Shown: positions 11,098 through 63,944 of the stretch, in pieces | How the letters are laid out: every line of letters begins with the position of its first letter | How positions within the stretch are numbered: position 1 is the stretch's first letter | Assembly: GCA_051870215.1 (NCBI GenBank) | Contig: JBJEBQ010000020.1 | Location: forward strand, 1,449 to 65,448 | DNA from: Candidatus Cryptobacteroides sp. | GTDB lineage: Bacteria; Bacteroidota; Bacteroidia; Bacteroidales; UBA932 | Length of the DNA stretch: 64,000 nucleotides | Reading direction: 5' to 3' | The notes under the pieces: generated by a model | What the model was told of the DNA's origin: nothing | Databases searched by the model: none | Seen by the model: the letters and a program-made list of their open reading frames with translations, nothing else | Position numbers and translations under genes: made by a program

Positions 11098-12867
11098 ATG
11101 AATAGAAGAATGAAATTGGCGGCCTGGGCGTTGGGAATGTTGGCGGCCGTGGTGTCGGGAGAAATTAATTCAAATGCGTGCACAAATGTGCTCATAACGA
11201 AGGGAGCGAGTGCCGACGGCTCGTGTATGGTGTCGTATGCGGCTGACAGTCACCAGCTTTACGGCGAATTGTACTACCTCGCGGGAGGAAAATGGGAGCG
11301 TGGAGCAATGAGGCGGATTACAGATTGGGACAGCGGAAAACCGCTCGGAGAGATTCCCCAGCCGGCGTTCACCTACCAGAGGGTGGGAAATATGAACGAG
11401 CACCAGCTGATTATTGCGGAGACGACCTACGGCGGACGTCCCGAATTGTGGGATTCAACCGGAGTAATGGACTATGGTTCATTGATTTATGTTGCTTTGG
11501 AAAGAGCCAAGACAGCCCGCGAGGCCATTGATGTAATCGTCTCTCTGGCAAATGAATACGGCTACTATTCCGAGGGCGAGTCATTCTCGATTGCGGACAA
11601 GGACGAAGTGTGGGTGATGGACCTTATCGGCAAGGGTCCGGGCAACAAAGGCATCGTGTGGGTGGCACGCAGGGTTCCCGACGGATATATCTGTGCGCAC
11701 GCCAACCAGGCACGCATCAGCACTTTTCCGTTGAATGACCCCGAGAACTGTCTGTATGCGCCTGATGTCATCAGTTTTGCACGCGGGAAAGGCTGGTTCA
11801 GCGGCGAGGACAAGGATTTCAGCTTCTGCGACGCATACGCACCGCTGGATTTCGGCGGAATGAGGGGCTGCGAGGCACGCGCATGGGCGGCGTTCAACAT
11901 ACTTTGCGACGGCAACTTCACTTTCACCGATGAGAACGGTCTGGAGGTGACCCGCCCTGCAATGGACTACATCGACTATGCCATGGGCTATGACAAGACA
12001 AAACGCTTCCCGCTTTTCGTCAAACCTGCACGCAAAATCACAGTCACAGACGTGGCGAATGTGATGAGGGACCACTACGAGAATACTCCTATGGATATGC
12101 GAGGCGACATCGGAGCAGGCGGGAATGCCCTGCCTTACAGATGGAGACCTATGTCTTTCAAGTATGAGGGCAAGACCTATATGAACGAGCGTGCGATTGC
12201 TACCCAGCAGACAGGTTTCTGGTTTGTGGGACAGGCGCGCAGCCAGTATCCTGACGAAATCGGAGGCATCATCTGGTTCGGTACTGACGACGCCGCAACC
12301 TCCTATCTGACACCGATTTACACTTCCACAAACGAGGTGCCTGAATGCTTTAGGCCCGGCAACGGCAGCATGATCAGCTACTCGCCTACTTCGGCATTCT
12401 GGATGACCAACCGCGTGGCCAATGCCTGCTACAGGATGTACAACATCATGGAACCGACCGTCCGCGCAGAGATTGACAAATGGCAGGCTGAAATGGATGC
12501 TGCCGTGGCTGCAATGGACGCGGAGGCTCTTGAGTTATACAAAGAACTCGACAGCAGACCGCGCATGAAAATCCGCCGCAATGACAAGCTCAGGAAGACA
12601 GCATATCCTTTCGGCCCGGTTCGCGAAAAACTGACGGAATTTTCTATAGCCAAAGCTCAGGTAATTTTTGACAGATGGGTGGCTTTAGAGCAGCTCCTGC
12701 TCGTCAAATACATCGACGGCAATGTCAAGGCCCAGAATGCTGACGGCAGTTTTGTCACCAACCCTTACACCGACTGCATTCCTGACGGCATCACCCAGCC
12801 GGGCTACACGGAAAAATGGAAAGAAGCCGTGGCCAAAGACCATGGCGAGGTCATTGAAGAACGATAA
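11098..12867 (+). CDS. C69-family dipeptidase
   Basis: Signal peptide followed by NACTNVLITKGASADGS, the N-terminal nucleophile Cys context of C69 peptidases. Length about 590 aa. Confidence 0.85.
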   Translation: MNRRMKLAAWALGMLAAVVSGEINSNACTNVLITKGASADGSCMVSYAADSHQLYGELYYLAGGKWERGAMRRITDWDSGKPLGEIPQPAFTYQRVGNMNEHQLIIAETTYGGRPELWDSTGVMDYGSLIYVALERAKTAREAIDVIVSLANEYGYYSEGESFSIADKDEVWVMDLIGKGPGNKGIVWVARRVPDGYICAHANQARISTFPLNDPENCLYAPDVISFARGKGWFSGEDKDFSFCDAYAPLDFGGMRGCEARAWAAFNILCDGNFTFTDENGLEVTRPAMDYIDYAMGYDKTKRFPLFVKPARKITVTDVANVMRDHYENTPMDMRGDIGAGGNALPYRWRPMSFKYEGKTYMNERAIATQQTGFWFVGQARSQYPDEIGGIIWFGTDDAATSYLTPIYTSTNEVPECFRPGNGSMISYSPTSAFWMTNRVANACYRMYNIMEPTVRAEIDKWQAEMDAAVAAMDAEALELYKELDSRPRMKIRRNDKLRKTAYPFGPVREKLTEFSIAKAQVIFDRWVALEQLLLVKYIDGNVKAQNADGSFVTNPYTDCIPDGITQPGYTEKWKEAVAKDHGEVIEER

Positions 12868-18061: not shown

Positions 18062-18111
18062 CAAAAATACAAAATCTTTGATAGAACGCTGTCAAATTCT
18101 TGTTAAGTTTG
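18062..18111. promoter_or_regulatory. Divergent promoter region with candidate operator
   Basis: CAAAAATA (18062-18069) is a minus-strand -7 box 25 nt from the IclR ATG. TAAGTTTG (18104-18111) is a plus-strand -7 box 37 nt from the MFS ATG. TTTGA(18077-18081)-N10-TCAAA(18092-18096) is an inverted repeat between them. Confidence 0.4.
18071..18084 (+). repeat. Partial copy of the ATGAAA cassette (14-mer AAAATCTTTGATAG)
   Basis: 14/14 identical to 21889-21902. Confidence 0.7.
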
Positions 18112-21873: not shown

Positions 21874-21909
21874 ATGAAACCGAACATGAAAATCTTTGAT
21901 AGTATGAAA
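21874..21909 (+). repeat. Start-proximal multi-ATGAAA cassette, reference copy
   Basis: ATGAAACCGAACATGAAAATCTTTGATAGTATGAAA. It begins 1 nt after the lactonase stop codon (21870-21872). Confidence 0.85.
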
Positions 21910-35130: not shown

Positions 35131-37356
35131 TTATTTGTTGTATCTGACGGCTACATAGTCAATGGCATTGTTGGCTTTTGCGGAATTGCCAGAACTTCCG
35201 TTTTTGTAGTCCGCGGCAAGATATGCCTGAGTTGTGTTGCCGTTGCCTGTCCTACCGTCGGGTATCATTCTGATATACACATCGTCCCTGTCAAGCATTT
35301 CGAGAGGCAGTCTGAAGTCCATAGCCTTGTAGCCCGGGCTCTGCCATGGCTGGGTTACAGTGTAGAGCACCACATCCGGAACCACATATTCCGCTATGTC
35401 GGTCCATACAGTAGAGGCGTCATTTGATTCCGCCCACTGAAGTTTCCATTTTACAGGGCTGTGACCTTCCTGGGATGCGTTCAGAGAGGAAAGCTGCAGG
35501 GAGAGGCAGTCCGTCGATATGCCTTTTGTAGAGAAACGGATGAACCAGTATTCAGGACTCTTGCTGCCGTCGTTCCACCAGATGGACGACATCCATGCCA
35601 TAGGGACAGTGTTGTTGGCAGAAAGGACTCCCTTTCCGGCATCGAAATCATAGTCCCGTCCGTAGTCGGTACCGTCTTCCAATATCACTCCGAAACCGCT
35701 CTGATTATTCTTGATTTTACCTCCGCACTGACCGAGATATGAATAACTGTAGACAGGATATGCGTGAGTGTTGAATGTTCCCTGAACGGCTGCTCCGCTG
35801 CTGTGGTTCATGGTTCCACTGCCGTAGGTCGCATTCCAGCCGTGGTCCGAATCATTGCCTTGGGTGAGATAACGCCATTCGCATATCATTTCTGAAAAAC
35901 TGTCCCTGAAACTATCCTCAAAAGCAAGATCGCCGCGAGACTGATGGCGAAGCTGGTATCTGCCGATGTTGCCGCAAAGTTCCTCATCGGCGGCGTCCCT
36001 GTCTATGAAGCGGCGGTATTTTTCATGCACCAGGATTCCGCTGACGCTGCCCCTGCCGTATCCCATGCGCGATCCGTCCCTGCGGTATCTGCACGTCACA
36101 TTGGTATAGAGATACATGCTTTCTCCTTCTATATCCCTTATCAGGGTTGGAAATTTGGTAAATCTGTTGGCTTTGAAAAGGTAGGTATAACCATCGTTCA
36201 CCGGGGTGAGACTGCCCTTGCGCACAGGAAATTCGCAATCCTTGAGGGTGATGCGGGTGTATATGTCATCATCGCTCAGTTCTGACATCCTTTTTTCCTT
36301 GAGCGGTATTTCAGCAGGATCAACGGCATCGCAGGAAATGACTTTTGATGACACCAGTCCGGTCAGAGAGTATCTGAGAGGCTCATTGTCGCCGGTGTCA
36401 ACAGTTCCGTTCCTATGCAGTTTCACGCCTTCAAGATTGATTATGGCCTTGCTGTTGTTGTCAAGTATATTGTCATCTGCTGTAGCGAACTCCAGCAGAA
36501 CGCCATATCTGCCGTCGAGGCTCTCCATATAGGCAGTTTTATGACAGACGGTGGTGTCGATTGTGGTGGATGTACTTTGGATATTGTCTCCGGCATTTCC
36601 ACTGTTCCTGTCACTCACCACATATCCCTCAAGGGTATAGTCATCGTTCAATTCCACAGGGGCGTCACCGGCAAGATTACGCAGTTCCTCAAAGCTAAGC
36701 TGGTTTCCTATGCGGTTCCTGGCATTGGCCTGCGTCACATTCAGCCGGCTTACCGTCTCTTCTCCCCATCCGTCACGGTAGCGTATTTCCAATACGGCCT
36801 TGCGGACATTCTTCTCGTCTGTATTATCTATAGTACTGAGACACAGAAAACCATCCTCTATCTTCACGGAACTTATCCAATTCCCGGCATCCAGATAGAC
36901 AGTTCTGAGCTGAAGGGCTTCGCTTTGTATATTCGATTTGAATCCGACGCGTACAGGCCCGCCGAGTCCGTTGTAGACAATGACGCCTGCCGACTCCAGT
37001 TCGAACATTTCCTCGTATGCTCCCTCCTGTTTCAGACGGATGGTGTCTTTGCGTACATCCGTCGCCACCTCAATGGACAGGCTTCGTTTTGCCTGCGTGT
37101 TTTCAGCCACGTCCAAGCATATAATGCCGTCGCAGTCAAAGACCGGATTGTCAATTTCCGCCCATGAAACGGCTTCCAGCGGAACCAGCGTTCCGGCAGC
37201 ATTGGCATAGACCTTTATCTCCACCTGTCCGCCTTCCGCAGAAACGATATATTCGTCCTTGTCGGTGCCCAATTCCTCCGGTTTCTGCAGACGCATACCG
37301 TCGAAAGAACACGAAACTGCCAGTGCAGCGGCCAACAACATATAAATTCTTTTCAT
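35131..37356 (-). CDS. BACON-domain lipoprotein with the same C-terminal module as 33551-35119
   Basis: MKRIYMLLAAALAVSCS lipoprotein signal from the ATG at 37356 (an in-frame ATG also lies at 37374). N-terminal BACON-like repeats are followed by the paralogous module. Confidence 0.75.
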   Translation of the reverse strand: MKRIYMLLAAALAVSCSFDGMRLQKPEELGTDKDEYIVSAEGGQVEIKVYANAAGTLVPLEAVSWAEIDNPVFDCDGIICLDVAENTQAKRSLSIEVATDVRKDTIRLKQEGAYEEMFELESAGVIVYNGLGGPVRVGFKSNIQSEALQLRTVYLDAGNWISSVKIEDGFLCLSTIDNTDEKNVRKAVLEIRYRDGWGEETVSRLNVTQANARNRIGNQLSFEELRNLAGDAPVELNDDYTLEGYVVSDRNSGNAGDNIQSTSTTIDTTVCHKTAYMESLDGRYGVLLEFATADDNILDNNSKAIINLEGVKLHRNGTVDTGDNEPLRYSLTGLVSSKVISCDAVDPAEIPLKEKRMSELSDDDIYTRITLKDCEFPVRKGSLTPVNDGYTYLFKANRFTKFPTLIRDIEGESMYLYTNVTCRYRRDGSRMGYGRGSVSGILVHEKYRRFIDRDAADEELCGNIGRYQLRHQSRGDLAFEDSFRDSFSEMICEWRYLTQGNDSDHGWNATYGSGTMNHSSGAAVQGTFNTHAYPVYSYSYLGQCGGKIKNNQSGFGVILEDGTDYGRDYDFDAGKGVLSANNTVPMAWMSSIWWNDGSKSPEYWFIRFSTKGISTDCLSLQLSSLNASQEGHSPVKWKLQWAESNDASTVWTDIAEYVVPDVVLYTVTQPWQSPGYKAMDFRLPLEMLDRDDVYIRMIPDGRTGNGNTTQAYLAADYKNGSSGNSAKANNAIDYVAVRYNK

Positions 37357-37386
37357 ATTATCAAAAATTTTCATGCCCGGTTTCCT
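37351..37386 (-). repeat. Start-proximal multi-ATGAAA cassette copy
   Basis: Minus strand AGGAAACCGGGCATGAAAATTTTTGATAATATGAAA, 31/36 identical to the reference. It begins 12 nt after the BACON gene stop. Confidence 0.8.
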
Positions 37387-38361: not shown

Positions 38362-39872
38362 TACAGTCCCTCCTCATATTCTTTATTGTCCAGCACGCCA
38401 CCGGACAGCGCCACCTGGGTGTCCGGAATCGGATAGTACCTGTGGCATTTCCTTATGTTGTTTCTCAGCACCGCATAATCGGTGAATTCGTAAGTTCTCT
38501 GATACCAGACGTCCCAGCGCACGAGGTCGAACTTGCGCTGGAATTCTCCGCAGAGTTCGCGGCCGCGCTCGTTCATGATTTCCTCCCTCAGTTTCTCTTT
38601 GGTCCTGAAACTTCCGTATGAACCTATGCCAGCACGCTGCTTCACCTGGTCGAGGCAGGCAATCGCCTCTTCGCTTTCGTCAAGTTCATTGTGACATTCG
38701 GCCAGCATCAGCAGGGCATCTGCATAGCGCAGAATTGTGTAGTTGTTGGAATCGTAATTGTTGTACATCCCGTAACACCAGAATTTCGGGCCGCTCCATG
38801 CCCTGGAAAAAGATTTTTTCGTACCGTCAGGCTGCACCCAATCCCACACGAGCGTCATATTCTTTCTCTTGTCAGTACCGGTCCTGCTGTAAAGGCCGCT
38901 GCTCAGGAAAGCATTCGGGCGCAAAGGCTGCCAGACAATGCAGTCCGTGCCTAACTCGCCTATCTCCACTCCGTTGAAAGTGACCTTGCCGGTACTTGTG
39001 TCGGTATGTTTCGGATAAGGCATGGTCACGGCACCGAGAGAAGCATACACTTTCTGTCCCGAAGGGGAATAGATATGCTGGACTTCATAGATGGATTCAG
39101 GAGTATTCTTCACGGAGTAAGGAATGTCGGAAAGAGGATATCGGGACAGATCTCCGTACATGTCCTGCACTTTCAGCAGCGCATCCTTCGCCGACTTCCA
39201 GTCCTTGTTCCACATTGCCATCTTGGCGAGTATCATATAACCGGCGGCAGCACCCATTCTCTGGAGCTCCCTGTCCCCTTTCATAATGTCGCAGCGGCGC
39301 ATCTGGGGCAGGTCGTCCAGACATTCCTGCAATTCAGACACGAGTTTCGCCCTGGTGTCAAAAGCAGGCATCCGTGGCAGCCTGCGTACGGCCTCCAAAT
39401 CCCCGACTGTCCTGATATAGTTCTCGTAGAACGGCACATCTCCGAAAAAGGAGGTAAGATAATAATACCAGAACGCCCTCATTATCCTGGCTTCCGCCAT
39501 AAGGGCAGCGGTTTCGCTTTCGGGCAGGCCCGAATGTTCTATGCCGTAAATTGCATAATTGGCATTTCTCACTCCCGCGTATGCATATTCCCACATGGTG
39601 TTGCCGAAACGCGGATTTGCCGGGGATATGTCCAGCTGGGCATCCTGGGTACCCGACTGAATCGAATACAAGTCGGTACAGCCCTCAACGGCTATTTCAA
39701 ACATATAGCCGAAAACCAAATTAATCTGGGAATATGCAGAGAGTACTGCCGCATCACACTGCTCCACAGTCTTGCAGAAGTTGTCCGGAGACAGGTAAAG
39801 CGAGGAATCTTCTTTCAGGGAACATCCCGTAATGACTGACAGTACAGTTAAAATATATAATGACTTTTTCAT
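38361..39872 (-). CDS. susD: RagB/SusD-family nutrient-binding outer membrane lipoprotein
   Basis: About 500-aa TPR-like protein directly after SusC. MKKSLYILTVLSVITGCS signal from the ATG at 39872 (in-frame ATGs also at 39890 and 39902). Confidence 0.9.
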   Translation of the reverse strand: MKKSLYILTVLSVITGCSLKEDSSLYLSPDNFCKTVEQCDAAVLSAYSQINLVFGYMFEIAVEGCTDLYSIQSGTQDAQLDISPANPRFGNTMWEYAYAGVRNANYAIYGIEHSGLPESETAALMAEARIMRAFWYYYLTSFFGDVPFYENYIRTVGDLEAVRRLPRMPAFDTRAKLVSELQECLDDLPQMRRCDIMKGDRELQRMGAAAGYMILAKMAMWNKDWKSAKDALLKVQDMYGDLSRYPLSDIPYSVKNTPESIYEVQHIYSPSGQKVYASLGAVTMPYPKHTDTSTGKVTFNGVEIGELGTDCIVWQPLRPNAFLSSGLYSRTGTDKRKNMTLVWDWVQPDGTKKSFSRAWSGPKFWCYGMYNNYDSNNYTILRYADALLMLAECHNELDESEEAIACLDQVKQRAGIGSYGSFRTKEKLREEIMNERGRELCGEFQRKFDLVRWDVWYQRTYEFTDYAVLRNNIRKCHRYYPIPDTQVALSGGVLDNKEYEEGL

Positions 39873-39902
39873 TCTATCAAAGTTTTTCATGTCCGTTTTC
39901 AT
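39867..39902 (-). repeat. Start-proximal multi-ATGAAA cassette copy
   Basis: Minus strand ATGAAAACGGACATGAAAAACTTTGATAGAATGAAA, 32/36 identical to the reference. It begins 6 nt after the susC stop. Confidence 0.85.
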
Positions 39903-39908
39903 TGCAAT

Positions 39909-42900
39909 TTAATAACGGATTTGGATACTGAATACAATGCGGCGTGCCTTAGGATATACACCCACGTCCATACGCCTTACGGTCGAACTGGTGCCGGAAC
40001 TCGAGACATCCGGGTCAAATCCGTTGTAATACTTTGCAAGCCAGAGATTATTGCCGGAAAGTGTAAACACGATATCATTCAGCACGGATTTCCTGAATTT
40101 CAGAGTATATGAAACGCTAAGGTCCTGAAGGCGCAGGAATGATGCGTTGTAAATCATGAAATCGCTCGGCACCGCACTCTCATAATATCCTGCACGCGGG
40201 ATGTCCGACTCCGGATTGCGTATAGGATGCCATGCGTTTTTCATGAACCTGTACTGGTTGGTGTACCGGCCGCCGGCAGTATAGAACATGGAATAGTTAT
40301 AGATTTTGCCGCCGAGGGAATATGTCCAATACATATTGATTCTGAAATTGCCTATACGGAAATTGTTCTGGAGGCCGCCATAGACCACCGGGTCGCAGTT
40401 GCCGAGATAGCACAGATCGTCCTGGGTAAGCGTACCGTCGTGGTTGACATCCACATATTTCGGAGTACCCAATGCCTGTGAAGCCGTCTGGGATACATAG
40501 GTATGGGTCCTGCCGTTGCGCTCGACCTCCTCCTGATTGTGCCATACGCCCGCGTAGGTGAAGCCCCAGAGCGAATTAAGAGGATAGCCGGCCCTGTAGC
40601 CCATCATCATATAAGGGTTGTTGCCCGGCGAGTTGAATGTGGATACATAAGCCTCTTCACCGACATCCTTCACCATCTGGCTGTTGTGGGCTATTGTAAA
40701 GGTAGTGCTCCATGAGAAATTCTTTCTGATTATATTCCTGCTGTCAATGGTGAGCTCCACTCCGTTGTTGGTCGTACGGCCGAGGTTCGCATAACGGGAG
40801 CCGTAGCCGGTGCTGAACGGAACCTTGACCGAGAGCAGAAGCCCGTCAGTATGGGAGAGATAGCCTTCCGCCGAGACAGACAGGCGGTTGTTGAAGAATT
40901 TGCCTGTAAGTCCGAAATTATACATGGTTGTGGTCTCCCATGTCAGGTCAGGGCTTTCGATTCTCGACGGACGGTACACCACCGGACGGGACTCATTGAC
41001 GAGAGGTCCTGTTGCCGAGACAAGAGCGTCGTGGGAATAAAAATATCCTATGGAGTCATTTCCCGTCTGGCCCACGCTTGCCTTGAACGAAAGTTCATCA
41101 ACATTCTTTGCGGCAGCCATGAAAGACTCATTATGGATATTCCATTTCACTGCGGCTGAAGGGAAGAACCCCCATTTGTGGTTATCCGCGAAATTGGATG
41201 CGGCATCGGTGCGGAAAGTCATAGTGAGATAGTACCTCTGCCTGTAGTTGTAGTCCGCACGCCCTATCACCGAGAGGTTGTTTTTCATCCTCGCATACGT
41301 CGAGGCATTGTAGGTGTTCTTGTCAACCACACTTCCCATATCGTTCCACTTCATCTCATCGACCATATATCCCGAACCGGACAGGCCGAAGAGGGAACTG
41401 TTGAATCTCACGCCCGTAAAGCCGGCAAGAACATCGACATTGTGGATTTTGGACCAGGATTTCTTGAAATTGAGAGTAGTCTCGAATGTGTGCCTGCCCT
41501 CTTTATATACCTCGCGCCTGGCATCCCCGCCGACCCCTTCCAGTTTCGCCGGCATTTCGGAAGATGTGTAGACATACTGCTGTCTGTCGTAGTAGAAAAA
41601 GTTGTATGAAGCCTTCCATTTGAACCATTTTGCGAAAGAAGCCTCAGCCCACACCGTCTGATTGAGGAAGAGACGCTCGTAATAGTTGGTGGAATATCTG
41701 ATGACATTGGTCGGGGTGTTGATGAGACCGCCTTCAAAATAATACGGATTATAGATGTCGTCAGGGGCAATGGAAGGAGAAAGATACTGTGAGGAATTCC
41801 ACCATCCCGTACCTCCGATTTTTGTGAGAGGATTGTCCTGATGACGCCATGTAATCGAATTCTTGTATCCGACTTTCAGGAAAGGGAAAAGCTGGTGGGA
41901 TATGCTCACCACACCGGAAACCTTGTTCTCACCGCTTTTCTTTATGATACCCTGGTTGTCGGAATAACCGGCCGACGCCCAATAATTGGTCTTGCCGTTT
42001 CCTCCGCTGAGGGAGAGGTGATAGTTCTGATATGCGGCTATACGGGTGATTTCCTTCACCCAATCCGTTCCTTTGCCTCTGCTGAGAGGATCAGTCGTCT
42101 GCTTGTCCGGAATAGGAGTGTTGTAGATGTCCGGGTTGTTGAAATGTTTGTCCCAATCGGTCAGATCCATGCGGTATATCGCATACTCGGTGGCATTCAT
42201 CATATCCAGACCTGACGGCAGCATGGATATTCCGGCTTCGGCCTTGAAAGTGATTTTAGGCCTGGAAGAGGCTCCTGAAGACGAGCCTTTCGTCGTTACC
42301 ATAATCACGCCGTTCGCTCCCCTTGCCCCGTAGATCGCCGTTGAGGACGCGTCTTTCAATATGGATATATCATCTATGTCGGCAGGATTAATGTCATTGA
42401 GGTCGCTTACCGCATCCATGACACCGTCCACGACAATCAAAGGCTCGTTTGAAGCCGTAATTGAACGTGTACCCCTGATACGGATGGATGTGGTCGCTCC
42501 GGGTTCGCCTGAAGTTGTCATCACGTCCGCACCTGCGACCCTTCCCTGCAGAGCCTGGTCGACAGATGTGACGGGAGATTCCTTTATGTCCCCCATCTTT
42601 ACATTGGCGACCGAGCCGGTAAGGTCCTCCCTGCGCACCGAGCCATAGCCTATGACCACCGACTCGTCCAATACCGTGGAGGCGTCCACCTGCATCACGA
42701 CATTACAGACAGTTTTCCCGTCAACCTTCAATGCGTATTCCTTCATGCCTAAAAAATTGAACACGAGAACATCGCCTACGGTACATTCCATTGAATATTT
42801 TCCGTCTATATCCGCCATCACGGTCTCTTTCACCATCTGCGAATCCGCCTGCCTGAGAGAGACGATTGCCCCGGGGAGAGCTTCGCCCGCTGCGTCAGTC

Positions 42901-44559: not shown

Positions 44560-44581
44560 TTTCATTCTATCAAATATTCAT
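44560..44581 (-). repeat. Partial cassette copy (second half)
   Basis: Minus strand ATGAATATTTGATAGAATGAAA. TTTGATAGAATGAAA is identical to the susD copy. Here its last ATG opens only a 5-codon mini-ORF (MKMFN), and the real start (44535) is 25 nt further on. Confidence 0.7.
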
Positions 44582-46124: not shown

Positions 46125-47292
46125 AAAAATCGTTGCTTGAATTGTTGGTATCCATCAAAACTTCATAGCCTCTCTCCGCAGAAGCCTCTTCGTCACGCCG
46201 TCTGACAAGGCTGTGCCCGAGCTGAGTGTTCGACAAAGTCACATAACCTCCGTCCAAAGACGGCACTAAGCGTTTCCTGTTGCCGGTAGACTGACCGTTG
46301 AACACTTCCACAGCATCCTCAACCCATTCGAAAGGCACTTTCACGACCCTGTCCACAGCAGAACCGGGCATCTGTATCACGTTTTCAGCCGACGAGACAA
46401 ATTCCTGAATCGTCGTATCCTTTGCGCGGAAAATTATCACGGCCGGAGAACTGTAAGAAAAGGTATATGCATTTGCCTGTCCTGTCTTTATCACCACATC
46501 CAGAATACGTTCAGGCTTTATCTTGTTTCCCGGAGCCGGATGCAATGCGGTATTCCAGAAATAAGTGGCATTGTAGCAGACAAAATAATCTTCATTGTTC
46601 AGATTGACAGACTCAGGAAACTGCGAGCTGTGATCAATGGCTCCATATACCACAATGACGGCATCCTCGCCGGGCGCAAGCGGAAAAGCCCTGCCGTCAC
46701 CGCCTATCTGCCAGACGGCCTGGATTACAGGACAATAGTCCTCAGGCGCTTTTCCCCAAGGATTTGCGCCGTTTGAATTATATGGAGCAAGAGTTCCAAG
46801 ACAAAGACCGTCAAGATAAGTCACGGAATCACCGTTATTATGGACCATGAGGTACACATCGGCATTGTACTTGTCCTCCTGAACAGGCCTCTTCGTACAG
46901 CCTCCGCAATAGATTTCCTTTATGACCAGATCTCTGGTGACGACCTCCGTCAGATTCATCCTGACATTGGTCTCCCCGCTGCCGACATATACCTTATCCA
47001 CAGAAGCATTATATCTCAGTCCCCCTATTATCGAAGAAAGCGAGAGCCGGTAGACACCCCCTGTCAGGACGATCGAAGCGATTCCGTCTTCATCAGCCAC
47101 AGCCACGAGTTCAGCGCTGTTCTTGACATTCGCTACCTTTACTTCCGTCCCTGCATACGATTCAATCTCATTTTCAGCAGACAATTCGATATTCAGGCGG
47201 CTCAGTCCGTCAGCATACGGATCCCGGCTGCCTATATCCGTGCAGGAAGCAAAAGCCCAAAGGCAGAATATTATAGAAATCAATCTTTTCAT
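46093..47292 (-). CDS. Lipoprotein (DUF4876-like, tentative)
   Basis: MKRLISIIFCLWAFASC signal from the ATG at 47292 (an in-frame ATG also lies at 47304). N-terminal Ig-like domain and an LVIKEIYCGG segment. Confidence 0.65.
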   Translation of the reverse strand: MKRLISIIFCLWAFASCTDIGSRDPYADGLSRLNIELSAENEIESYAGTEVKVANVKNSAELVAVADEDGIASIVLTGGVYRLSLSSIIGGLRYNASVDKVYVGSGETNVRMNLTEVVTRDLVIKEIYCGGCTKRPVQEDKYNADVYLMVHNNGDSVTYLDGLCLGTLAPYNSNGANPWGKAPEDYCPVIQAVWQIGGDGRAFPLAPGEDAVIVVYGAIDHSSQFPESVNLNNEDYFVCYNATYFWNTALHPAPGNKIKPERILDVVIKTGQANAYTFSYSSPAVIIFRAKDTTIQEFVSSAENVIQMPGSAVDRVVKVPFEWVEDAVEVFNGQSTGNRKRLVPSLDGGYVTLSNTQLGHSLVRRRDEEASAERGYEVLMDTNNSSNDFYESDRQLLHK

Positions 47293-47304
47293 GTTCGGTT
47301 TCAT
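47286..47304 (-). repeat. Partial cassette copy (first half)
   Basis: Minus strand ATGAAACCGAACATGAAAA, 19/19 identical to the reference. It begins 3 nt after the TonB receptor stop. Confidence 0.8.
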
Positions 47305-57673: not shown

Positions 57674-57800
57674 ATATGTACAAGATTTCTCCACTCGCTT
57701 CGCTCGGTCGAAATGACAACGAGCAGAGCGCAGAGTCAAGCTTGCTTGAACTATGCCGAGGCGAGGAAGTCATTGTAAAACCGTAGGTTTTAAAATGACA
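57674..57800 (+). repeat. Intergenic repeat element, copy B
   Basis: 57681-57800 aligns with 26282-26403, with the same terminal hairpin (57769-57799). It begins about 10 nt beyond the NhaC stop. Confidence 0.85.
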
Positions 57801-59281: not shown

Positions 59282-59410
59282 TTTCCAAGCACTTAATTCT
59301 TTGTCAATCAATTTTCCACCAAAAAGACCGCAAAGATACACTTATTCCCTCTATCTCACAAAAAAACATCGTGTTCCGTATTGTCCGCCAAATCAGGAAA
59401 GATCAGATTA

Positions 59411-59460
59411 CTTTCTGCTTTAAGCAAAAAATCATAAAATCTGCTTTTTTCAATTAACAA
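59411..59460 (+). repeat. Left 50-nt imperfect direct repeat flanking the ATPase gene
   Basis: 40/50 ungapped identity with 60901-60950 (CTTTCTGCTTTAAGCAAAAAATCATAAAATCTGCTTTTTTCAATTAACAA). Confidence 0.8.
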
Positions 59461-59473: not shown

Positions 59474-59525
59474 CACTATCGTAACTGCCGTTACGGTAAT
59501 TGGCATTACGATAAAACGTGCAGAT

Positions 59526-59565
59526 ATGAAACCGAACATGAAAATCTTTGTTTGATAGTATGAAA
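59526..59565 (+). repeat. Start-proximal multi-ATGAAA cassette copy with a 4-nt TTTG duplication
   Basis: All 36 cassette bases are identical to 21874-21909. An extra TTTG after position 25 puts the first two ATGs out of frame (atg aaa ccg aac atg aaa atc ttt gtt TGA). The last ATG (59560) is the ATPase start. Confidence 0.9.
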
Positions 59566-60885
59566 TTTTTTGATAGAGAAGCTGAATTTGAAAAACTTAG
59601 GGAAATTGAAGAATTGTCCCTTGAAGCAGCCCGATTTACCATCATAACGGGAAGACGGCGTATCGGTAAAACAGAGATGGTCAAGAAGTTTTATGAGAAC
59701 AAGACAATACTCGACTTTTTTGTTGCCAGAAAAGCCGAAACCGACCTGTGTGATATATTTATTGAAGAAATTCGCACAAAACTCAACATACCAATGCTTG
59801 ATGGCAAAGGGATGTCTTTTGCTGCGATATTCAGATTCATTATGGAACTGTCGCAGACTCAACATATCACGCTCTTTATTGACGAATTTCAGGATTTCTA
59901 CAGAGTGAATCCGTCTATCTATTCTGATATGCAGAATATCTGGGACAGCTATAAAAACAAGGCACACATCAATCTGATAGTGGCAGGTTCAGTAAACACT
60001 TTAATGAATAAGATATTCAAGGATAAGAAGCAGCCCCTGTTTGGCAGGCAGACCGACACTATACATATCCGACCGTTCAGTCCCTCCGTAATGAAAGAAA
60101 TAATGTCTGAATATTGTCCTGACTATAAGAAGTCGGACCTGTTAGCTCTTTATACTCTGACCGGCGGAGTGGCCAAATATGTCGAGTTGTTCGTCGACAA
60201 GAAAAAGTTCACTGAGAAAAAGATGCTGGATATGTTCTTTGAACGTGATTCTTATTTTTTGTCAGAAGGCAAGAATATGCTTGTTGATGAATTCGGAAAG
60301 GATTACGGCATCTATTTCTCAATTCTGACACTTATAGCCCAAGGCAGAAATACACGCTCAGAACTGGAAAGTGCCCTCAATATAAAAGAATTGTCAGGTT
60401 ACTTGAAAAACCTTAATGAAGAGTATGGCCTGATAGCCAAGATGCAACCGGTTTACGAAAAGTCATCCAACAAGAACGTGCATTATACAATCAACGACCA
60501 GTTCCTGAAATTCTGGTTCCGGTTTATATATAAATACGTACACATCATCGAAGCCGGCGGTAATGAGAAATTGAAAACAATAGCAGAGCGCGATTTTACA
60601 ACATTCAGCGGAAAATCTCTTGAACATTATTTTAATGAAGTACTGAAGGAGTCCGGTCAATACACAAGACTTGGATACTGGCATGACAGAAAAGGCGAAA
60701 ATGAAATTGACATTATTGCAGAAGACGAACTGGAGAAAAAGATTGAATTCATTGAAGTCAAGCGACAGGCAAAAAACTTTGACGAAGAAGTATTAAAAGC
60801 CAAATCCGAATTGTTCCTGAAGGCGGTAGGATCTTTCAAAGAGTACGAGGTTATCTATAAAGGACTGTCGATAGAGGATATGTGA
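59560..60885 (+). CDS. ATPase_2/DUF234-type ATP-binding protein (AAA+ ATPase with nuclease-like C-terminus)
   Basis: MKFFDREAEF start, Walker A GRRRIGKTE and Walker B LFIDEFQDF. The C-terminal EIDIIAEDELEKKIEFIEVKRQ has D...ExK spacing. The track start at 59548 is a TTG. Confidence 0.85.
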   Translation: MKFFDREAEFEKLREIEELSLEAARFTIITGRRRIGKTEMVKKFYENKTILDFFVARKAETDLCDIFIEEIRTKLNIPMLDGKGMSFAAIFRFIMELSQTQHITLFIDEFQDFYRVNPSIYSDMQNIWDSYKNKAHINLIVAGSVNTLMNKIFKDKKQPLFGRQTDTIHIRPFSPSVMKEIMSEYCPDYKKSDLLALYTLTGGVAKYVELFVDKKKFTEKKMLDMFFERDSYFLSEGKNMLVDEFGKDYGIYFSILTLIAQGRNTRSELESALNIKELSGYLKNLNEEYGLIAKMQPVYEKSSNKNVHYTINDQFLKFWFRFIYKYVHIIEAGGNEKLKTIAERDFTTFSGKSLEHYFNEVLKESGQYTRLGYWHDRKGENEIDIIAEDELEKKIEFIEVKRQAKNFDEEVLKAKSELFLKAVGSFKEYEVIYKGLSIEDM

Positions 60886-60900
60886 TTTTATTGAATTTTG

Positions 60901-60950
60901 CTTTCCGCTTTGAGCAAAAATCCCTAAAATTTGCTTTCTTCAATAAGCAA
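60901..60950 (+). repeat. Right 50-nt imperfect direct repeat flanking the ATPase gene
   Basis: CTTTCCGCTTTGAGCAAAAATCCCTAAAATTTGCTTTCTTCAATAAGCAA. TAAGCAAAAAATCA recurs at 60944-60957 and 59421-59434. Confidence 0.8.
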
Positions 60951-61069
60951 AAAATCACCCATCTGGCTTGTCGGCTTCCTATATTGAACCGGAAAAAATT
61001 GCCGGCAAACCAAAAGCCGGCCACGAAAGAACACCATCAGTGTAGAGGATTAACTTATTTATCAGAACT

Positions 61070-61577: not shown

Positions 61578-61784
61578 TTATTGTAATTCACGAAGCTCTG
61601 CAATGAGTTCATCTAAAATATAATCATCACTCATCAGATGTAAACCATATTTTGGGGAAGATAACTGTCGGTAAACATTTGATGAATAAAACAAATCAAG
61701 AGCACGCTCTGGAGCAATTTGCAGAGAGTCAGCCAAACGCATAATTATACGGCTTTCCTTGCGCCAAAGAACACTATCTCTCAT
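61578..61784 (-). CDS. DUF3791-family protein (second copy)
   Basis: 68 aa (APERALDLFYSSNVYRQLSSPKYGLHLMSDDYILDELIAE). Its ATG overlaps the stop of the DUF3990 reading frame (ATGA). Confidence 0.75.
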   Translation of the reverse strand: MRDSVLWRKESRIIMRLADSLQIAPERALDLFYSSNVYRQLSSPKYGLHLMSDDYILDELIAELRELQ

Positions 61785-62289
61785 AGCTGCCCCTCCTTTA
61801 ATGTTTCTGATGAGACAAATGTTAAATAATTATCTGCTATTTCCTGATTTAAGATACAAATCTGGTGATTTACTTCTTTATATCTTAATTGTCCCAAAGC
61901 TTGTTCGGCTGTAATGATCCCGTTTTCATAGTCCTCAACTGTATCAATGACATTGTCATTGGCAACACCACCTTCTACCAGATCATACAGATTCTGTAAT
62001 TTACCGTCTTTCCTGCAATCAACTACATATTCAAGCCACTCATGATTATATGCATCAAATTTTTTTATTCGATTTCACCAGATGTAACAGCATTATAGTC
62101 AAATGAATATAAAGATACAACCGCTTCTGCACTACGACCTTTTCTCTCAGCAATGGTTCTTGCCCAAGATTCTGCTTGTTTACGTAACTTTGTTAGGTAA
62201 AATCCTTGTCCGAAATCTACTTTTTTCCTGCCTAATTTCACGAGTGGGGCAGATACTGTAACGTATGAACCATGAAATAATGTTATCAT
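61781..62289 (-). pseudogene. DUF3990-family gene interrupted by a frameshift
   Basis: Segment 1 (62289-62068) reads MITLFHGSYVTVSAPLVKLGRKKVDFGQGFYLT...GEIE, then TAA at 62065-62067. Segment 2 continues in another frame: (I)KKFDAYNHEWLEYVVDCRKDGKLQNLYDLVEGGVANDNV..., ending at TGA 61781-61783. Together they give about 169 codons, the normal DUF3990 size. Confidence 0.75.
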
Positions 62290-62519
62290 GCTCCAGCCTC
62301 CCAATTTAAAAGTGTCTCGCTAATATCCTCAGCGACCCAATCGATGCTCTGAGTATGCAGGTCTTCATATCTTCCAAACAGACGACGATGAATCAAGCCC
62401 TGTTTTTTTAGTCTGTCATGCATCTCTTTTCCGCTTATACCCAATTTACGGGCACCACTTTCTATGGCTATAACGGCAAAATGGACGCGTCTATATGTTT
62501 CATTATTTGTGTAATTCAT
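62286..62519 (-). CDS. DUF3791-family protein (first copy)
   Basis: MNYTNNETYRRVHFAVIAIESGARKLGISGKEMHDRLKKQGLIHRRLFGRYEDLHTQS... The ATG at 62519 is 28 nt downstream of a -7 box, and the track start at 62576 lies upstream of that box. Its stop overlaps the DUF3990 ATG (ATGA). Confidence 0.8.
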   Translation of the reverse strand: MNYTNNETYRRVHFAVIAIESGARKLGISGKEMHDRLKKQGLIHRRLFGRYEDLHTQSIDWVAEDISETLLNWEAGA

Positions 62520-62546
62520 AACACATGGTATATAATTCGTATAGTG

Positions 62547-62554
62547 CAAATTTA
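62547..62554 (-). promoter_or_regulatory. Candidate -7 box for the DUF3791/DUF3990 operon
   Basis: Plus-strand CAAATTTA is TAAATTTG on the minus strand. Confidence 0.4.
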
Positions 62555-62974
62555 ATAATAAAAATGATTTTTTCAAGCCCTCCCTGTCTTATGTACAGGA
62601 TACATTCAAGCACATTCACTTACCCGGAAAAATATAGTGCAACATTTTCATCCGGAAAATAAAGTCATAATGAGGATGATTCAATCAAAAACAGTGAATC
62701 GTCCACAAAACGATACGAATTTTGGACGACTCACTGAAAAATAAGCGATATTTTGTGTCACTTTTCGGTGACGACGATCTGGCCGTCTTTGACAGTGACG
62801 AGAATTTCGCTGTCGCGGCGTACCTTGCCGTCGAGGATATTGTTTTTCCGGCACAATCCAAGATTTTGTTAAATAAACTTTATAAAATTACACTGTTTTT
62901 ATAAAGTACACTTTACAAAAAGCACTATAATCTCTACTTTCGGTAAAAAATTTGCAGGATTGAAATAAAAGCAC

Positions 62975-62982
62975 TACTTTTG
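62975..62982 (+). promoter_or_regulatory. Candidate -7 box for the Abi gene
   Basis: TACTTTTG 114 nt upstream of the ATG at 63096. Confidence 0.3.
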
Positions 62983-63095
62983 CATCGACAATTTCCGCCA
63001 CGCCTCTTCTCAATGCGTACCAGGGCGGAACTTTTGCTTTTTATACACTTACGGATTATACTAAACAACCGCTGGATTATCCACAGATTCTTCAG

Positions 63096-63944
63096 ATGCT
63101 GAAAGACCGGGGACTAATCATTAGAGATGATAATGATGCTTCAGCGCAGTTAAAAATCATGAGTTATTTCCGTCTGGCGAATTACCTCCGTCCGATGGAG
63201 CAGGACAAGACCACTCATATATTCAAGTCCAACAGCCATTTCGATAATGCCGTCAATCTTTATTACTTTGACAAGAAACTGAGGGCGTTGCTGTTCACGG
63301 CCATCCAAAGTTTTGAGATAGCTCTTCGCTCGAAACTCATACACCATTTTTCGATGGCTTACGGTTCTTTTTGGATAATGGACAGAAGTCTATTTACTGA
63401 CAAGAAAATTTTCACTGATTGCTCTATCCGTGTTCAGCAGGAAGTTTTCCGTTCTAAAGAGGATTTTATCCAGGAGCATATTGACAAATACTCTAATCCG
63501 ATAATACCACCTGTTTGGAAAACTTTGGAAGTGGTTTCTTTCGGTACATTGTCAAAGATATTCTGTAACTTGAAGGACACTAAAATCAAGAAGAAAATTG
63601 CGAGGGAATTTAACTTGCCACAGCATGAATATCTTGAGAGTTGGTGTAAATGTGCCGTTGCCCTGCGTAACTGTCTCGCACATCATTCACGCACATGGAA
63701 CAGAAGATACCCTCTGAAACCACAGCTTCCCGGTAAGCTGAAAGGTGACTGGATAAATGCATCCATAACACTGCCCACCAAACTCTACGCCCAGCTTTGC
63801 TGCTTGGCATACTTGCAAAACGCCACCCATCCTGCCAATGATTTCAAGCAGCAATTAAAATCGTTACTGCAAGCTCATCCTAATGTCGATGTGGCAGCGA
63901 TGGGCTTCCCTGCCGGTTGGGAAAATGAACCGCTTTGGAAGTAA
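63096..63944 (+). CDS. Abi_2 (AbiD/AbiF-like) abortive-infection family protein
   Basis: LKDRGLIIRDDNDASAQLKIMSYFRLANYLRP, FDKKLRALLFTAIQSFEIALRS and RNCLAHHSRTWNR are typical Abi_2 blocks. Family-like sequence continues upstream of the first ATG without an in-frame start. Confidence 0.85.
   Translation: MLKDRGLIIRDDNDASAQLKIMSYFRLANYLRPMEQDKTTHIFKSNSHFDNAVNLYYFDKKLRALLFTAIQSFEIALRSKLIHHFSMAYGSFWIMDRSLFTDKKIFTDCSIRVQQEVFRSKEDFIQEHIDKYSNPIIPPVWKTLEVVSFGTLSKIFCNLKDTKIKKKIAREFNLPQHEYLESWCKCAVALRNCLAHHSRTWNRRYPLKPQLPGKLKGDWINASITLPTKLYAQLCCLAYLQNATHPANDFKQQLKSLLQAHPNVDVAAMGFPAGWENEPLWK

What the first reader, a model, noticed from the sequence alone, without database searches (positions are those of the whole stretch)
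21874..21909. Recurrent ~36-nt multi-ATGAAA cassette at the 5' ends of unrelated genes
ATGAAACCGAACATGAAAATCTTTGATAGTATGAAA sits at the enolase-type gene start and recurs at seven other sites.
- 59526-59565 (+): all 36 bases identical, plus a TTTG duplication, before the DUF234 ATPase.
- 39902-39867 (-): 32/36, at susD.
- 37386-37351 (-): 31/36, at the BACON protein.
- 47304-47286 (-): first 19 nt identical, at the DUF4876-like lipoprotein.
- 44581-44560 (-): second half only, before the Big_2/FISUMP gene.
- 56944-56919 (-): last 21 nt at 19/21, at the CMD-cupin gene.
- 18071-18084 (+): 14/14.
The genes served are unrelated: cytoplasmic enzymes, an ATPase and lipoproteins. Shared protein ancestry therefore cannot explain the identity. 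The element is modular: ATGAAA-CCGAAC, then ATGAAA-ATCTTTGATAGT, then ATGAAA. In five cases it starts only 1-13 nt after the stop codon of the preceding co-oriented gene. In three lipoprotein genes, the last ATGAAA (the second, in the truncated 47286-47304 copy) is the start that gives a canonical signal peptide (MKKSLY...GCS, MKRIYM...SCS, MKRLIS...ASC). In two copies the upstream ATGs are closed by stops (44560 and 56919 copies), so the conserved unit is nucleotide sequence, not peptide. My hypothesis is an intercistronic translation (re)initiation or ribosome-loading cassette in an organism without Shine-Dalgarno use. Alternatively it could be a binding site for a regulator or sRNA.
Basis: seen in the sequence. 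Interest (0 to 1): 0.65.

Follow-up and report, generated by a model that had tools for sequence, protein, structure and literature searches.

The report
Start-codon-inserting mobile repeat, short form
The 36-base cassette is real, but it is best explained as the hairpin-less short form of a previously undescribed small mobile repeat of gut Bacteroidales that inserts exactly at ATGAAA start codons and leaves the gene translatable, not as a purpose-built ribosome-loading signal.

Summary
ATGAAACCGAACATGAAAATCTTTGATAGTATGAAA sits at 21874-21909. Four further copies in the window are clear and three are weak. The last ATGAAA is always the gene's start codon.

The cassette is a multicopy repeat with exact borders. 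In related gut metagenomes, many contigs diverge precisely before 21874 and after 21909. The same 36-mer heads unrelated genes in many Bacteroidales MAGs, notably Candidatus Cryptobacteroides.

The new result is a long form of about 137 nt, found in metagenome contigs. It has the same two ends, with three hairpins between them. The pairing is supported by covariation and by G-C to G-U changes.

At two loci, near-identical strains lack the whole long element. The empty and filled alleles differ by 136-137 nt flanked by the direct repeat TATGAAA. The window cassette equals the long form with everything between two internal direct repeats (AAAATYTTTGATA) removed.

The modular copies (12, 18 or 30 nt) fit deletions between the repeated ATGAAA(A) and AAAATYTTTGATA motifs.

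The identity between unrelated genes therefore reflects copy-and-paste descent. A dedicated role in translation or regulation is neither shown nor excluded. No match was found in Rfam, in plasmid records or in the literature searched.

The parts
21874..21909 (+). Full short-form cassette (consensus). ATG3 at 21904 is the start of the MR_MLE/enolase-superfamily gene. It begins 1 nt after the lactonase stop codon.
59526..59565 (+). Full short-form cassette with a 4-nt TTTG insertion. The insertion closes the upstream reading frame at TGA. ATG3 at 59560 starts the ATPase_2/DUF234 gene. The whole gene with its cassette (59477-60957) is absent in strain X1.
39867..39902 (-). Diverged short-form cassette (32/36) at the susD start (ATG3 at 39872), 6 nt after the susC stop. 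Related strains lack 17 nt (39894-39910) that include most of module 1.
37351..37386 (-). Diverged short-form cassette (31/36, ATG1 is AGG) at the start of the DUF5689 lipoprotein gene (ATG3 at 37356), 12 nt after the BACON gene stop.
47286..47304 (-). Module-1-only derivative: ATGAAACCGAAC followed by the native ATGAAAA start of the DUF4876 lipoprotein gene, 3 nt after the TonB-dependent receptor stop.
   Evidence: same form in L049, L052, L061, L067, L143
56919..56944 (-). Partial copy (modules 2-3, 19/21). The upstream ATG is closed at once by TAA. ATG at 56924 starts the CMD-cupin gene.
44560..44581 (-). Doubtful, decayed remnant (modules 2-3 with a 2-nt gap), 25 nt upstream of the Big_2/Fib_succ gene start. 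Its ATGs are closed by stops.
   Evidence: E 0.48; no multicopy pile-up
18071..18084 (+). Isolated 14-mer AAAATCTTTGATAG (the fused-junction type), not at a start codon. It may be a fragment of the repeat or part of an operator-like inverted repeat in the IclR/MFS intergenic region.
   Evidence: E 0.3

Best explanation
**What it is.** The cassette is the hairpin-less short form of a family of small mobile repeats of gut Bacteroidales. These repeats carry no gene of their own.

**The full element.** It is about 130 nt and reads CCGAAC-[hairpin P1 holding a second ATGAAA]-[hairpin P2]-[A/U hairpin P3]-TGATAGT. It inserts at (T)ATGAAA. This is the start context of about half the genes in this window. 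After insertion the element is flanked by two copies of that motif. The 5' copy becomes 'ATG1'. The 3' copy remains the gene's start.

**The short form.** The 30-nt short form keeps only the two ends, joined at an internal 13-nt direct repeat (AAAATYTTTGATA). The 12-nt and 18-nt 'modules' correspond to deletions between the repeated ATGAAA(A).

**Why copies survive at start codons.**
- The insertion recreates an intact ATGAAA.
- It supplies an A/U-rich, unstructured leader with A at -3.
- Its 3' end stops the two other frames just before or on the ATG.
- In the short form, the upstream ATGs stay in frame without stops. Ribosomes starting there make a protein that is 4-10 residues longer.

**Consequence.** The sequence identity between unrelated genes comes from recent common descent of the copies, not from selection for a shared signal.

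**Shown:** repeat status, exact borders, the long form and its structure, empty versus filled alleles, and the flanking repeat.

**Inferred:** the direction long to short, the mobility of the short form itself, and translational neutrality.

**Unknown:** the enzyme that moves it.
For: **Multicopy repeat with exact borders**
- Depth bumps and contigs that diverge exactly at the cassette ends were seen.
- The summed depth corresponds to tens to about 200 copy-equivalents. This is only a bound, because the samples hold many species.

**The same 36-mer elsewhere**
- It occurs in about 28 loci from about 12 Bacteroidales MAGs. These include six Candidatus Cryptobacteroides MAGs.
- It sits at the starts of purD, metG, lipoprotein genes and others. 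The flanks are unrelated.

**Long form**
- It was found in 26 loci (19 distinct sequences) with the same two ends.
- It folds into three hairpins with MFE -52.4 kcal/mol and z -6.75.
- 97.2% of cells pair, against 44-52% when the 3' partners are slid. There are 27 double-sided changes.
- G-C to G-U switches occur, and no A.C pairs are seen.

**Empty versus filled alleles in near-identical strains**
- At L055, contigs join 669 to 807, skipping 137 nt, with 7 letters shared (runs X13, X15).
- At L139, contigs join 12451 to 12588, skipping 136 nt, with 7 letters shared, in three metagenomes.

**Short form**
- An X38 contig spans the L009 cassette site without breaking and is exactly 30 nt shorter.
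- Orthologues of the window's MR_MLE gene lack the cassette.
- The two main short-form variants are ATC (13 copies) and ATT (10 copies). They match the two arms of the internal repeat in the long form.

**Other support**
- Tandem arrays (long + short, long + module 1) occur in L044, L062 and L143.
- 22 of 41 genes in the window start with ATGAAA, and 6 of those carry element-derived sequence.
Against: - No transposase or recombinase is linked to the element. There are no terminal inverted repeats.
- No long form lies in the 64-kb window.
- The short form's own mobility rests on one inferred 30-nt gap. Its position was not printed.
- No polymorphism was seen at the L014 or window copies.
- The direction long to short is argued from parsimony only.
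- The empty alleles could in principle be precise deletions between the 7-nt repeats.
- Many copies in different species are identical to the consensus. This could also reflect purifying selection for a function. Orthologous pairs were too similar to test this.
- All read evidence comes from assembled contigs of mixed communities, not from raw reads.
Confidence: 0.7

Rival explanations
1. The cassette is a selected translation (re)initiation or ribosome-loading leader for an organism that does not use Shine-Dalgarno sequences. Its sequence is conserved because it works best.
For: - It always abuts the true start codon, and it often lies 1-13 nt after an upstream stop.
- It is unstructured, with z +1 to +2.
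- It has A at -3, a positive determinant in Bacteroidetes (PMC6847099).
- It has stops in both other frames just before or on the ATG (direct reading).
- RNA-run contigs run through copies of the 36-mer.
- Many copies are identical to the consensus across species.
Against: - Generic A/U-richness does not explain the conservation of CCGAAC and ATCTTTGATAGT.
- The same ends bound a hairpin-rich mobile element.
- Orthologues do without the cassette.
- Related strains lose module 1 at susD.
- AUGs at -18 and -30 contradict the AUG depletion of Bacteroidetes initiation regions.
- No expression data are available.
Confidence: 0.15
2. The cassette is a shared target site for a trans-acting small RNA or RNA/DNA-binding protein, and so defines a regulon.
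For: - A 36-nt identical tag covering the initiation region would be an ideal antisense target.
- The 3' arm of hairpin P1 in the long form (AUAUCAAAGAUUUUCAU) is complementary to module 2 of the short form.
Against: - The genes served have no functional coherence.
- Copies decay freely.
- There is no palindromic or direct-repeat architecture typical of protein operators.
- There is no Rfam family.
- No free-standing antisense copy occurs in 1.2 Mb of held sequence.
- In the long form the complementary arm is sequestered in cis.
Confidence: 0.07
3. The cassette encodes a functional N-terminal peptide tag (MKPNMKIFDS-MK...).
For: - All three ATGs are in frame and the 30 nt contain no stop.
- ATC/ATT/ATA variants are synonymous.
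- One variant (L015) has an in-frame 3-nt deletion.
Against: - ATG1 is lost in several copies.
- The 59526 copy has a +4 insertion. Two partial copies have immediate stops.
- Non-synonymous changes are common (N to D, S or T; S to R or N).
- The long form has stops after 14-18 codons.
- The carriers include cytoplasmic enzymes as well as lipoproteins.
Confidence: 0.04
4. The copies are crossover sites of a site-specific inversion or shufflon, or an integron-like system, that swaps genes behind promoters.
For: Copies occur in both orientations within 40 kb, and at the 5' ends of genes in susC/susD loci.
Against: - No recombinase gene lies in the window.
- No contig changes strand or joins two cassette copies in three DNA runs.
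- The only joint at a cassette is a tandem duplication.
Confidence: 0.02

Closest known systems
Small non-autonomous interspersed repeats that are co-transcribed with neighbouring genes (MITE-like elements such as ERIC, Correia/NEMIS, BOX/RUP, Bacillus bcr1; review PMC10969869)
   Same: - It is short, has no ORF and is multicopy.
- It shows presence/absence polymorphism with a flanking direct repeat.
- It folds into stable hairpins in the mRNA.
- It lies in 5' UTRs and between cistrons.
   Different: - It has no terminal inverted repeats.
- Its target is a specific hexamer or heptamer that is the start codon itself.
- Its orientation relative to the gene is fixed.
- A 30-nt derivative without hairpins is the abundant form in this lineage.
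Rickettsia palindromic elements (in-frame selfish repeats in coding genes; PMC10969869)
   Same: It is a repeat tolerated because it keeps the reading frame. The short form adds 10 in-frame, stop-free codons.
   Different: - It sits at the very N-terminus or leader. No copy seen is internal to an ORF.
- The long form is not an open reading frame.
- The sequence is unrelated.
Hairpin elements moved by Y1 HUH transposases (IS200/IS605-derived palindrome-associated elements, REP/REPIN with RAYT). This comparison rests on my own knowledge and was not tested.
   Same: - It has no terminal inverted repeats.
- It has hairpins near both ends.
- Its orientation is strand-specific.
- It inserts next to a short specific sequence, and its right end repeats that sequence.
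   Different: - No TnpA or RAYT gene is linked to it.
- The data cannot tell a true target duplication from insertion 3' of a target.
- The short form has no hairpins.
Shine-Dalgarno-independent initiation regions of Bacteroidetes (Kozak-like A-3, low structure, AUG depletion; PMC6847099)
   Same: It has A at -3, it is A/U-rich, and it is unstructured directly upstream of the start.
   Different: It carries two extra AUGs within 30 nt upstream, which such regions normally avoid. Its sequence is fixed rather than merely biased in composition.

Membership tests
MITE (miniature inverted-repeat transposable element) | Small size with no transposase ORF | tested here: met
   The long form is 118-150 nt and the short form 30 nt plus the duplicated hexamer. 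The only internal ORF is a 14-18-codon uORF.
MITE (miniature inverted-repeat transposable element) | Many dispersed copies per genome | tested here: met
   Depth over the element is 5-35 times or more that of the flanks, and contigs diverge at its borders. There are 5-6 copies in this 64-kb window.
MITE (miniature inverted-repeat transposable element) | Flanking direct repeat of the target, with empty and filled alleles | tested here: met
   Empty alleles at two loci skip 137 and 136 nt, and 7 letters (TATGAAA) fit both sides. The short form has an inferred 30-nt gap.
MITE (miniature inverted-repeat transposable element) | Terminal inverted repeats | tested here: not met
   The 5' end (CCGAACATGAAAATC...) and the reverse complement of the 3' end (ACTATCAAAAATTT...) are unrelated. 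The ends share a direct repeat, not an inverted one.
MITE (miniature inverted-repeat transposable element) | A parent insertion sequence with the same ends | not tested
   None was seen in 1.2 Mb of held loci. No genome-wide search was possible.
IS200/IS605-type palindrome-associated element or REPIN | Hairpins near the ends and no terminal inverted repeats | tested here: inconclusive
   The long form meets this: P1 starts 6 nt from the left junction and P3 ends 13 nt from the right one. The window's short form has no hairpin.
IS200/IS605-type palindrome-associated element or REPIN | Insertion 3' of a short target without duplication | tested here: inconclusive
   The empty/filled comparison fits either a 6-7-bp duplication or an element whose right end repeats the target.
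IS200/IS605-type palindrome-associated element or REPIN | Y1 HUH transposase (TnpA or RAYT) in the same genome | not testable with these tools
   Only 64 kb of the genome is available. No such domain occurs among the 40 ORFs scanned.
Curated cis-regulatory RNA (riboswitch, leader, thermometer) | Match to an Rfam model | tested here: not met
   Only tRNAs reach gathering score. Nothing is credible at E up to 10.
Curated cis-regulatory RNA (riboswitch, leader, thermometer) | Conserved secondary structure with covariation | tested here: inconclusive
   The long form meets this. The copies are close relatives, and the loops vary. The short form is less structured than its shuffles.
Curated cis-regulatory RNA (riboswitch, leader, thermometer) | Association with a functionally coherent gene set | tested here: not met
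   The genes include lpxB, radC, dapB, rfbD, purD, metG, a sugar-acid dehydratase-like enzyme, an ATPase, many lipoprotein genes and a mobilisation operon.
Bacteroidetes Shine-Dalgarno-independent initiation region (PMC6847099) | A at -3 and low structure | tested here: met
   The sequence reads ...GATAGTATG, which puts A at -3. Fold z-scores are +1 to +2 for three of four window copies.
Bacteroidetes Shine-Dalgarno-independent initiation region (PMC6847099) | Depletion of AUG at -21 to -1 | tested here: not met
   The cassette has an AUG at -18 and another at -30.
Site-specific inversion or shufflon crossover site | A nearby recombinase, and molecules in alternative orientation | tested here: not met
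   There is no recombinase domain. No strand-changing joints occur at cassettes in the DNA runs.

The most novel reading that the evidence does not exclude
The family may be a new kind of start-codon-homing mobile element.

- The internal antisense arm (…GAUUUUCAU, the 3' arm of hairpin P1) would recognise AUGAAA(A) by base pairing on single-stranded DNA or RNA. This would be comparable in principle to the guide-target pairing of IS200/IS605 elements, IS110 elements or group II introns.
- The host would have co-opted the two forms as alternative leaders.
  - The long form would act as a switch made of a uORF plus hairpins.
  - The short form would act as a constitutive in-frame leader with several AUGs.
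- Loss of the hairpins would then act as a heritable change of translation for a sizeable fraction of genes. In this window, 6 of the 22 genes that start with ATGAAA carry element-derived sequence.
Probability: 0.2. Interest if true: 0.85.

Novelty: new variant of a known kind. Interest (0 to 1): 0.6.

Why it matters
If correct, abundant but uncultured gut Bacteroidales carry tens to hundreds of copies of a tiny element whose target is the start codon itself.

- **Gene starts are rewritten.** The leader is replaced, and probably the N-terminus too. In this window that affects 6 of the 22 genes that start with ATGAAA.
- **Annotation is affected.** Gene callers can place these starts 12-30 nt too far upstream.
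- **Assembly is affected.** Short-read contigs break at the repeat.
- **It offers a natural experiment.** The same gene exists with its native leader, with the 30-nt leader or with the hairpin leader. This could show how ribosomes that do not use Shine-Dalgarno sequences choose among neighbouring AUGs.
- **It points to an unknown insertion mechanism** with a 6-7-nt sequence-specific target.

Tried and rejected
- **Rfam.** Gathering and permissive thresholds on long-form loci gave nothing.
- **Plasmid records.** blastn of the long form against 72,556 plasmid records gave no match.
- **Viral contigs.** All three matches are coding sequence of an unrelated protein and lack module 1.
- **Literature.** Searches with the sequences themselves and with keywords found no description.
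- **Promoter idea.**
  - The cassette's AAnnTTTG resembles the Bacteroidetes -7 box TAnnTTTG. It lacks the TA, and no -33 TTTG lies at the right spacing.
  - Canonical -7 boxes lie upstream in the unrelated flanks: L004, L020, L036 and L039, L053 and L080.
- **Purifying selection on the cassette.** Orthologous pairs were 90-100% identical in the flanks, so there was no power.
- **Short-form polymorphism.** None was seen at L014 or at the window copies, apart from a 17-nt indel at susD.
- **Resemblance to the DUF234 ATPase start.** Module 2 (MKIFDS) resembles the ATPase N-terminus (MKFFDRE), with 15 of 17 nt identical. I noted this but treat it as unexplained or coincidental.
- **The 36-nt 'goes back' joint in X1.** It may be a real tandem duplication or an assembly loop. 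It is not used as evidence.

Full report
**1. The observation**

The 36-mer ATGAAACCGAACATGAAAATCTTTGATAGTATGAAA is at 21874-21909. No match occurred in any of 100 shuffles.

A profile built from related copies recovers the following in the window:
- 59526-59565, identical apart from a TTTG insertion;
- 39902-39867, 32/36;
- 37386-37351, 31/36;
- 47304-47286, first 19 nt.

Three further sites are individually weak: 56939-56919, 44578-44560 and 18071-18086.

Pfam confirms the gene context. The genes involved are an MR_MLE enzyme after a lactonase gene, susD after susC, a DUF5689 lipoprotein after a BACON protein, a DUF4876 lipoprotein after a TonB-dependent receptor, a CMD-cupin protein and an ATPase_2/DUF234 protein. 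In every clear copy the last ATGAAA opens the long ORF.

**2. It is a multicopy repeat with exact borders**

I laid contigs of related gut metagenomes on the window.
- The cassette bin has depth 324 and 101, against about 9 and 5 in the flanks.
- At least nine contigs per run diverge exactly before 21874 and after 21909.
- Contigs from RNA runs carry the 36-mer internally, each in a different sequence context. The repeat is therefore transcribed as part of longer mRNAs.
- The same pattern holds at two Cryptobacteroides loci.

The summed depths correspond to tens to about 200 copy-equivalents. The samples hold many species, so this is only a bound.

**3. It is shared by a lineage**

I scanned one genome per species with only modules 2-3 as the pattern. 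This gave 46 loci.
- About 28 are Bacteroidales MAGs. They include six Candidatus Cryptobacteroides MAGs and several unnamed Bacteroidales.
- In nearly all of these, module 1 (which was not part of the search pattern) lies directly 5'.
- The sequence on both sides is unrelated.
- The third ATGAAA opens an ORF in almost all copies: purD, metG, a membrane protein and many lipoproteins.
- Hits outside Bacteroidales lack module 1 and are chance matches.
- The window's own genome is not in that collection.

**4. A long form exists**

I scanned metagenome contigs with module 1 plus ATGAAAA. This showed 26 loci (19 distinct sequences) with the following order:
- ATGAAACCGAAC;
- ATGAAAATCTTTGATAT, a loop, and the complement ATATCAAAGATTTTCAT (hairpin P1);
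- GTGAGAGTGAGCGATAGC-gaacg-GCTATCATACTCTCAC (hairpin P2);
- an A/T-only hairpin (P3);
- TGATAGT;
- the ATGAAA of a gene (lpxB, radC, dapB, rfbD, a HAD hydrolase, an M16 peptidase, lipoproteins).

The structural evidence is as follows.
- The RNA folds at -52.4 kcal/mol with z -6.75.
- On 16 copies, 97.2% of cells pair, against 44-52% when the 3' partners are slid.
- There are 27 cells with changes on both sides.
- P2 varies only by G-C to G-U, and no A.C pairs occur. This fits selection on the sense-strand RNA, though only four positions are involved.

Rfam holds nothing similar. The window has no P2 motif.

**5. The long form is mobile**

At the lpxB locus (L055):
- Contigs of two runs join position 669 to 807 and skip 137 nt.
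- Seven letters fit both sides.
- One of these contigs is 25.8 kb long at depth 119.

At a second locus (L139):
- Three metagenomes from different hosts skip 136 nt, again with seven shared letters.
- The flanks are 99-100% identical.

The shared letters are TATGAAA. The element, including module 1, is therefore present or absent as a unit and is bounded by a repeated start codon. ATG1 of the cassette is the 5' copy, and ATG3 is the 3' copy and real start.

The long form is also highly multicopy in the very runs that hold the window's species. Summed depth over P2 is 1000-2000.

Canonical Bacteroidetes -7 boxes (TAnnTTTG) lie in the unrelated flanks, 4-26 nt upstream of several copies. The element is therefore transcribed as a leader.

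**6. Relation of short to long**

The first 28-29 nt and the last 15 nt of the window cassette equal the two ends of the long form.
- The long form holds the 13-mer AAAATCTTTGATA in the 5' arm of P1.
- It holds AAAATTTTTGATA just before its 3' end.
- Removing everything between these two repeats gives exactly the 36-mer.
- Short copies split ATC 13 to ATT 10. These are the two variants expected from crossovers on either side of the one differing base.

The other forms fit the same logic.
- Module-1-only copies (47304 here; L049, L052, L061, L067) fit deletions between the repeated ATGAAA(A).
- Module-2-only copies (L036) fit deletions of the same kind.
- A mobilisation operon exists with module 1 only in some contigs and the long form in others.
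- Tandem arrays (long + short, long + module 1) share one ATGAAA at each joint.

This direction is inferred, not shown.

**7. Is the short form itself gained and lost?**

- Orthologues of the MR_MLE gene at 87-88% identity, in the same lactonase-MR_MLE context, start directly at ATGAAT without the cassette.
- At L009, a contig at 99.4% identity spans the cassette site without breaking and is exactly 30 nt shorter. The gap position was not printed, but it must lie in the high-depth repeat. Elsewhere it would have been listed.
- At susD, related strains lack 17 nt that include most of module 1.
- No change was seen at the other copies examined.

**8. Why only at start codons?**

The window has 93 ATGAAA sites.
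- 22 of 41 genes start with ATGAAA.
- 11 sites are in-frame internal and 21 are out-of-frame sense sites.
- All element copies lie at gene starts.

A hexamer target plus removal of gene-breaking insertions is enough to explain this. A mechanism that senses start codons is not required, though it is not excluded.

**9. Consequences for translation (inference)**

- The 3' end TTTGATAGTATGA leaves frame 0 open into the gene.
- It stops frame +2 at TGA TAG.
- It stops frame +1 at the TGA that overlaps the ATG.
- A sits at -3.
- The short form is less structured than its shuffles.
- In the short form, ATG1 and ATG2 are in frame and stop-free. Ribosomes using the native leader would make proteins 4-10 residues longer.
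- In frame-broken copies (59526, 56944, 44581) the upstream frames close before the start.
- In the long form, ATG1 opens a 14-18-codon uORF that ends inside P1/P2.

Bacteroidetes deplete AUG within 21 nt upstream of starts (PMC6847099). An AUG at -18 therefore argues against an evolved optimal leader. It fits an element that is merely tolerated.

**10. Comparison with known elements**

The element behaves like the small interspersed repeats that ride in bacterial transcripts, and like in-frame Rickettsia elements (PMC10969869). It differs in four ways:
- it lacks terminal inverted repeats;
- it has a fixed orientation;
- it targets the start codon;
- it has a dominant 30-nt derivative.

Its end hairpins and target-like right end recall Y1-transposase elements. 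This comparison is from my own knowledge and is untested. No enzyme is known. Sequence and keyword searches of the literature found no description.

**11. Verdict**

The translation-cassette reading is partly supported as a description of what the 3' end can do. It is not supported as the cause of the identity. The best explanation is a new variant of a small mobile repeat. My confidence is about 0.7 for that core claim and lower for the long-to-short direction and for neutrality.

Noticed in passing
window 57683-57718 and 57726-57763: A second, unrelated, very high-copy repeat lies in the intergenic region upstream of the Na+/H+ antiporter gene (AGATTTCTCCACTCGCTTCGCTCGGTCGAAATGACA...). Depth is 650-1065 against about 10 in the flanks, and dozens of contigs diverge at its borders. 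It looks like a REP-type palindromic unit.
   Followed up: partly
window 59477-60957: The whole DUF234/ATPase_2 gene, with its cassette, is absent in strain X1 (a joint skips 1481 nt). The segment is flanked by imperfect direct repeats of about 40 nt (around 59405-59450 and 60905-60955, sharing TAAGCAAAAAATCA). Three runs also show a joint from 60958 back to 59436.
   Followed up: partly
window 59560-59580 compared with 59538-59559: The true 5' end of the ATPase gene, ATGAAATTTTTTGATAGAGAA (MKFFDRE), resembles module 2 of the cassette, ATGAAAATCTTTGATAGT (MKIFDS), at 15 of 17 nt. As a result TTTGATAG occurs twice within 30 nt. This is unexplained.
   Followed up: no
window 39894-39910: Strain-level 17-nt indel at the susC-susD junction. 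In X1 and X2, susC ends at a TGA that overlaps the last bases of module 1. X5 has other small insertions at 39906 and 39909.
   Followed up: yes
window 18071-18100: An imperfect inverted repeat, TTTGATAG-aacg-CTGTCAAA, lies between the divergent IclR-type regulator gene and the MFS transporter/sugar-acid operon. It is a plausible operator.
   Followed up: no
window 61578-63944: Small minus-strand ORFs that I recognise from memory as DUF3990/DUF3791-like lie next to an Abi_2 gene. Together with the variable ATPase gene, this end of the window looks like a small variable or defence island. Only Abi_2 and the ATPase were checked with Pfam.
   Followed up: no
L050 1774-2313 and about 50 similar loci; L060, L085, L105: The third gene of a three-gene operon carries module 1 only in many human-gut contigs. 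In related contigs it carries the full long element. The operon (139/403/175 aa) looks like a MobA/B/C mobilisation operon, judged by size and order only. If so, the repeat also sits in mobile DNA that moves between hosts.
   Followed up: partly
L009 3760-3810: One consensus cassette is followed by an ORF of only 16 codons (MKKSEDPADFLESELL*). This may be a small gene or a disrupted one.
   Followed up: no
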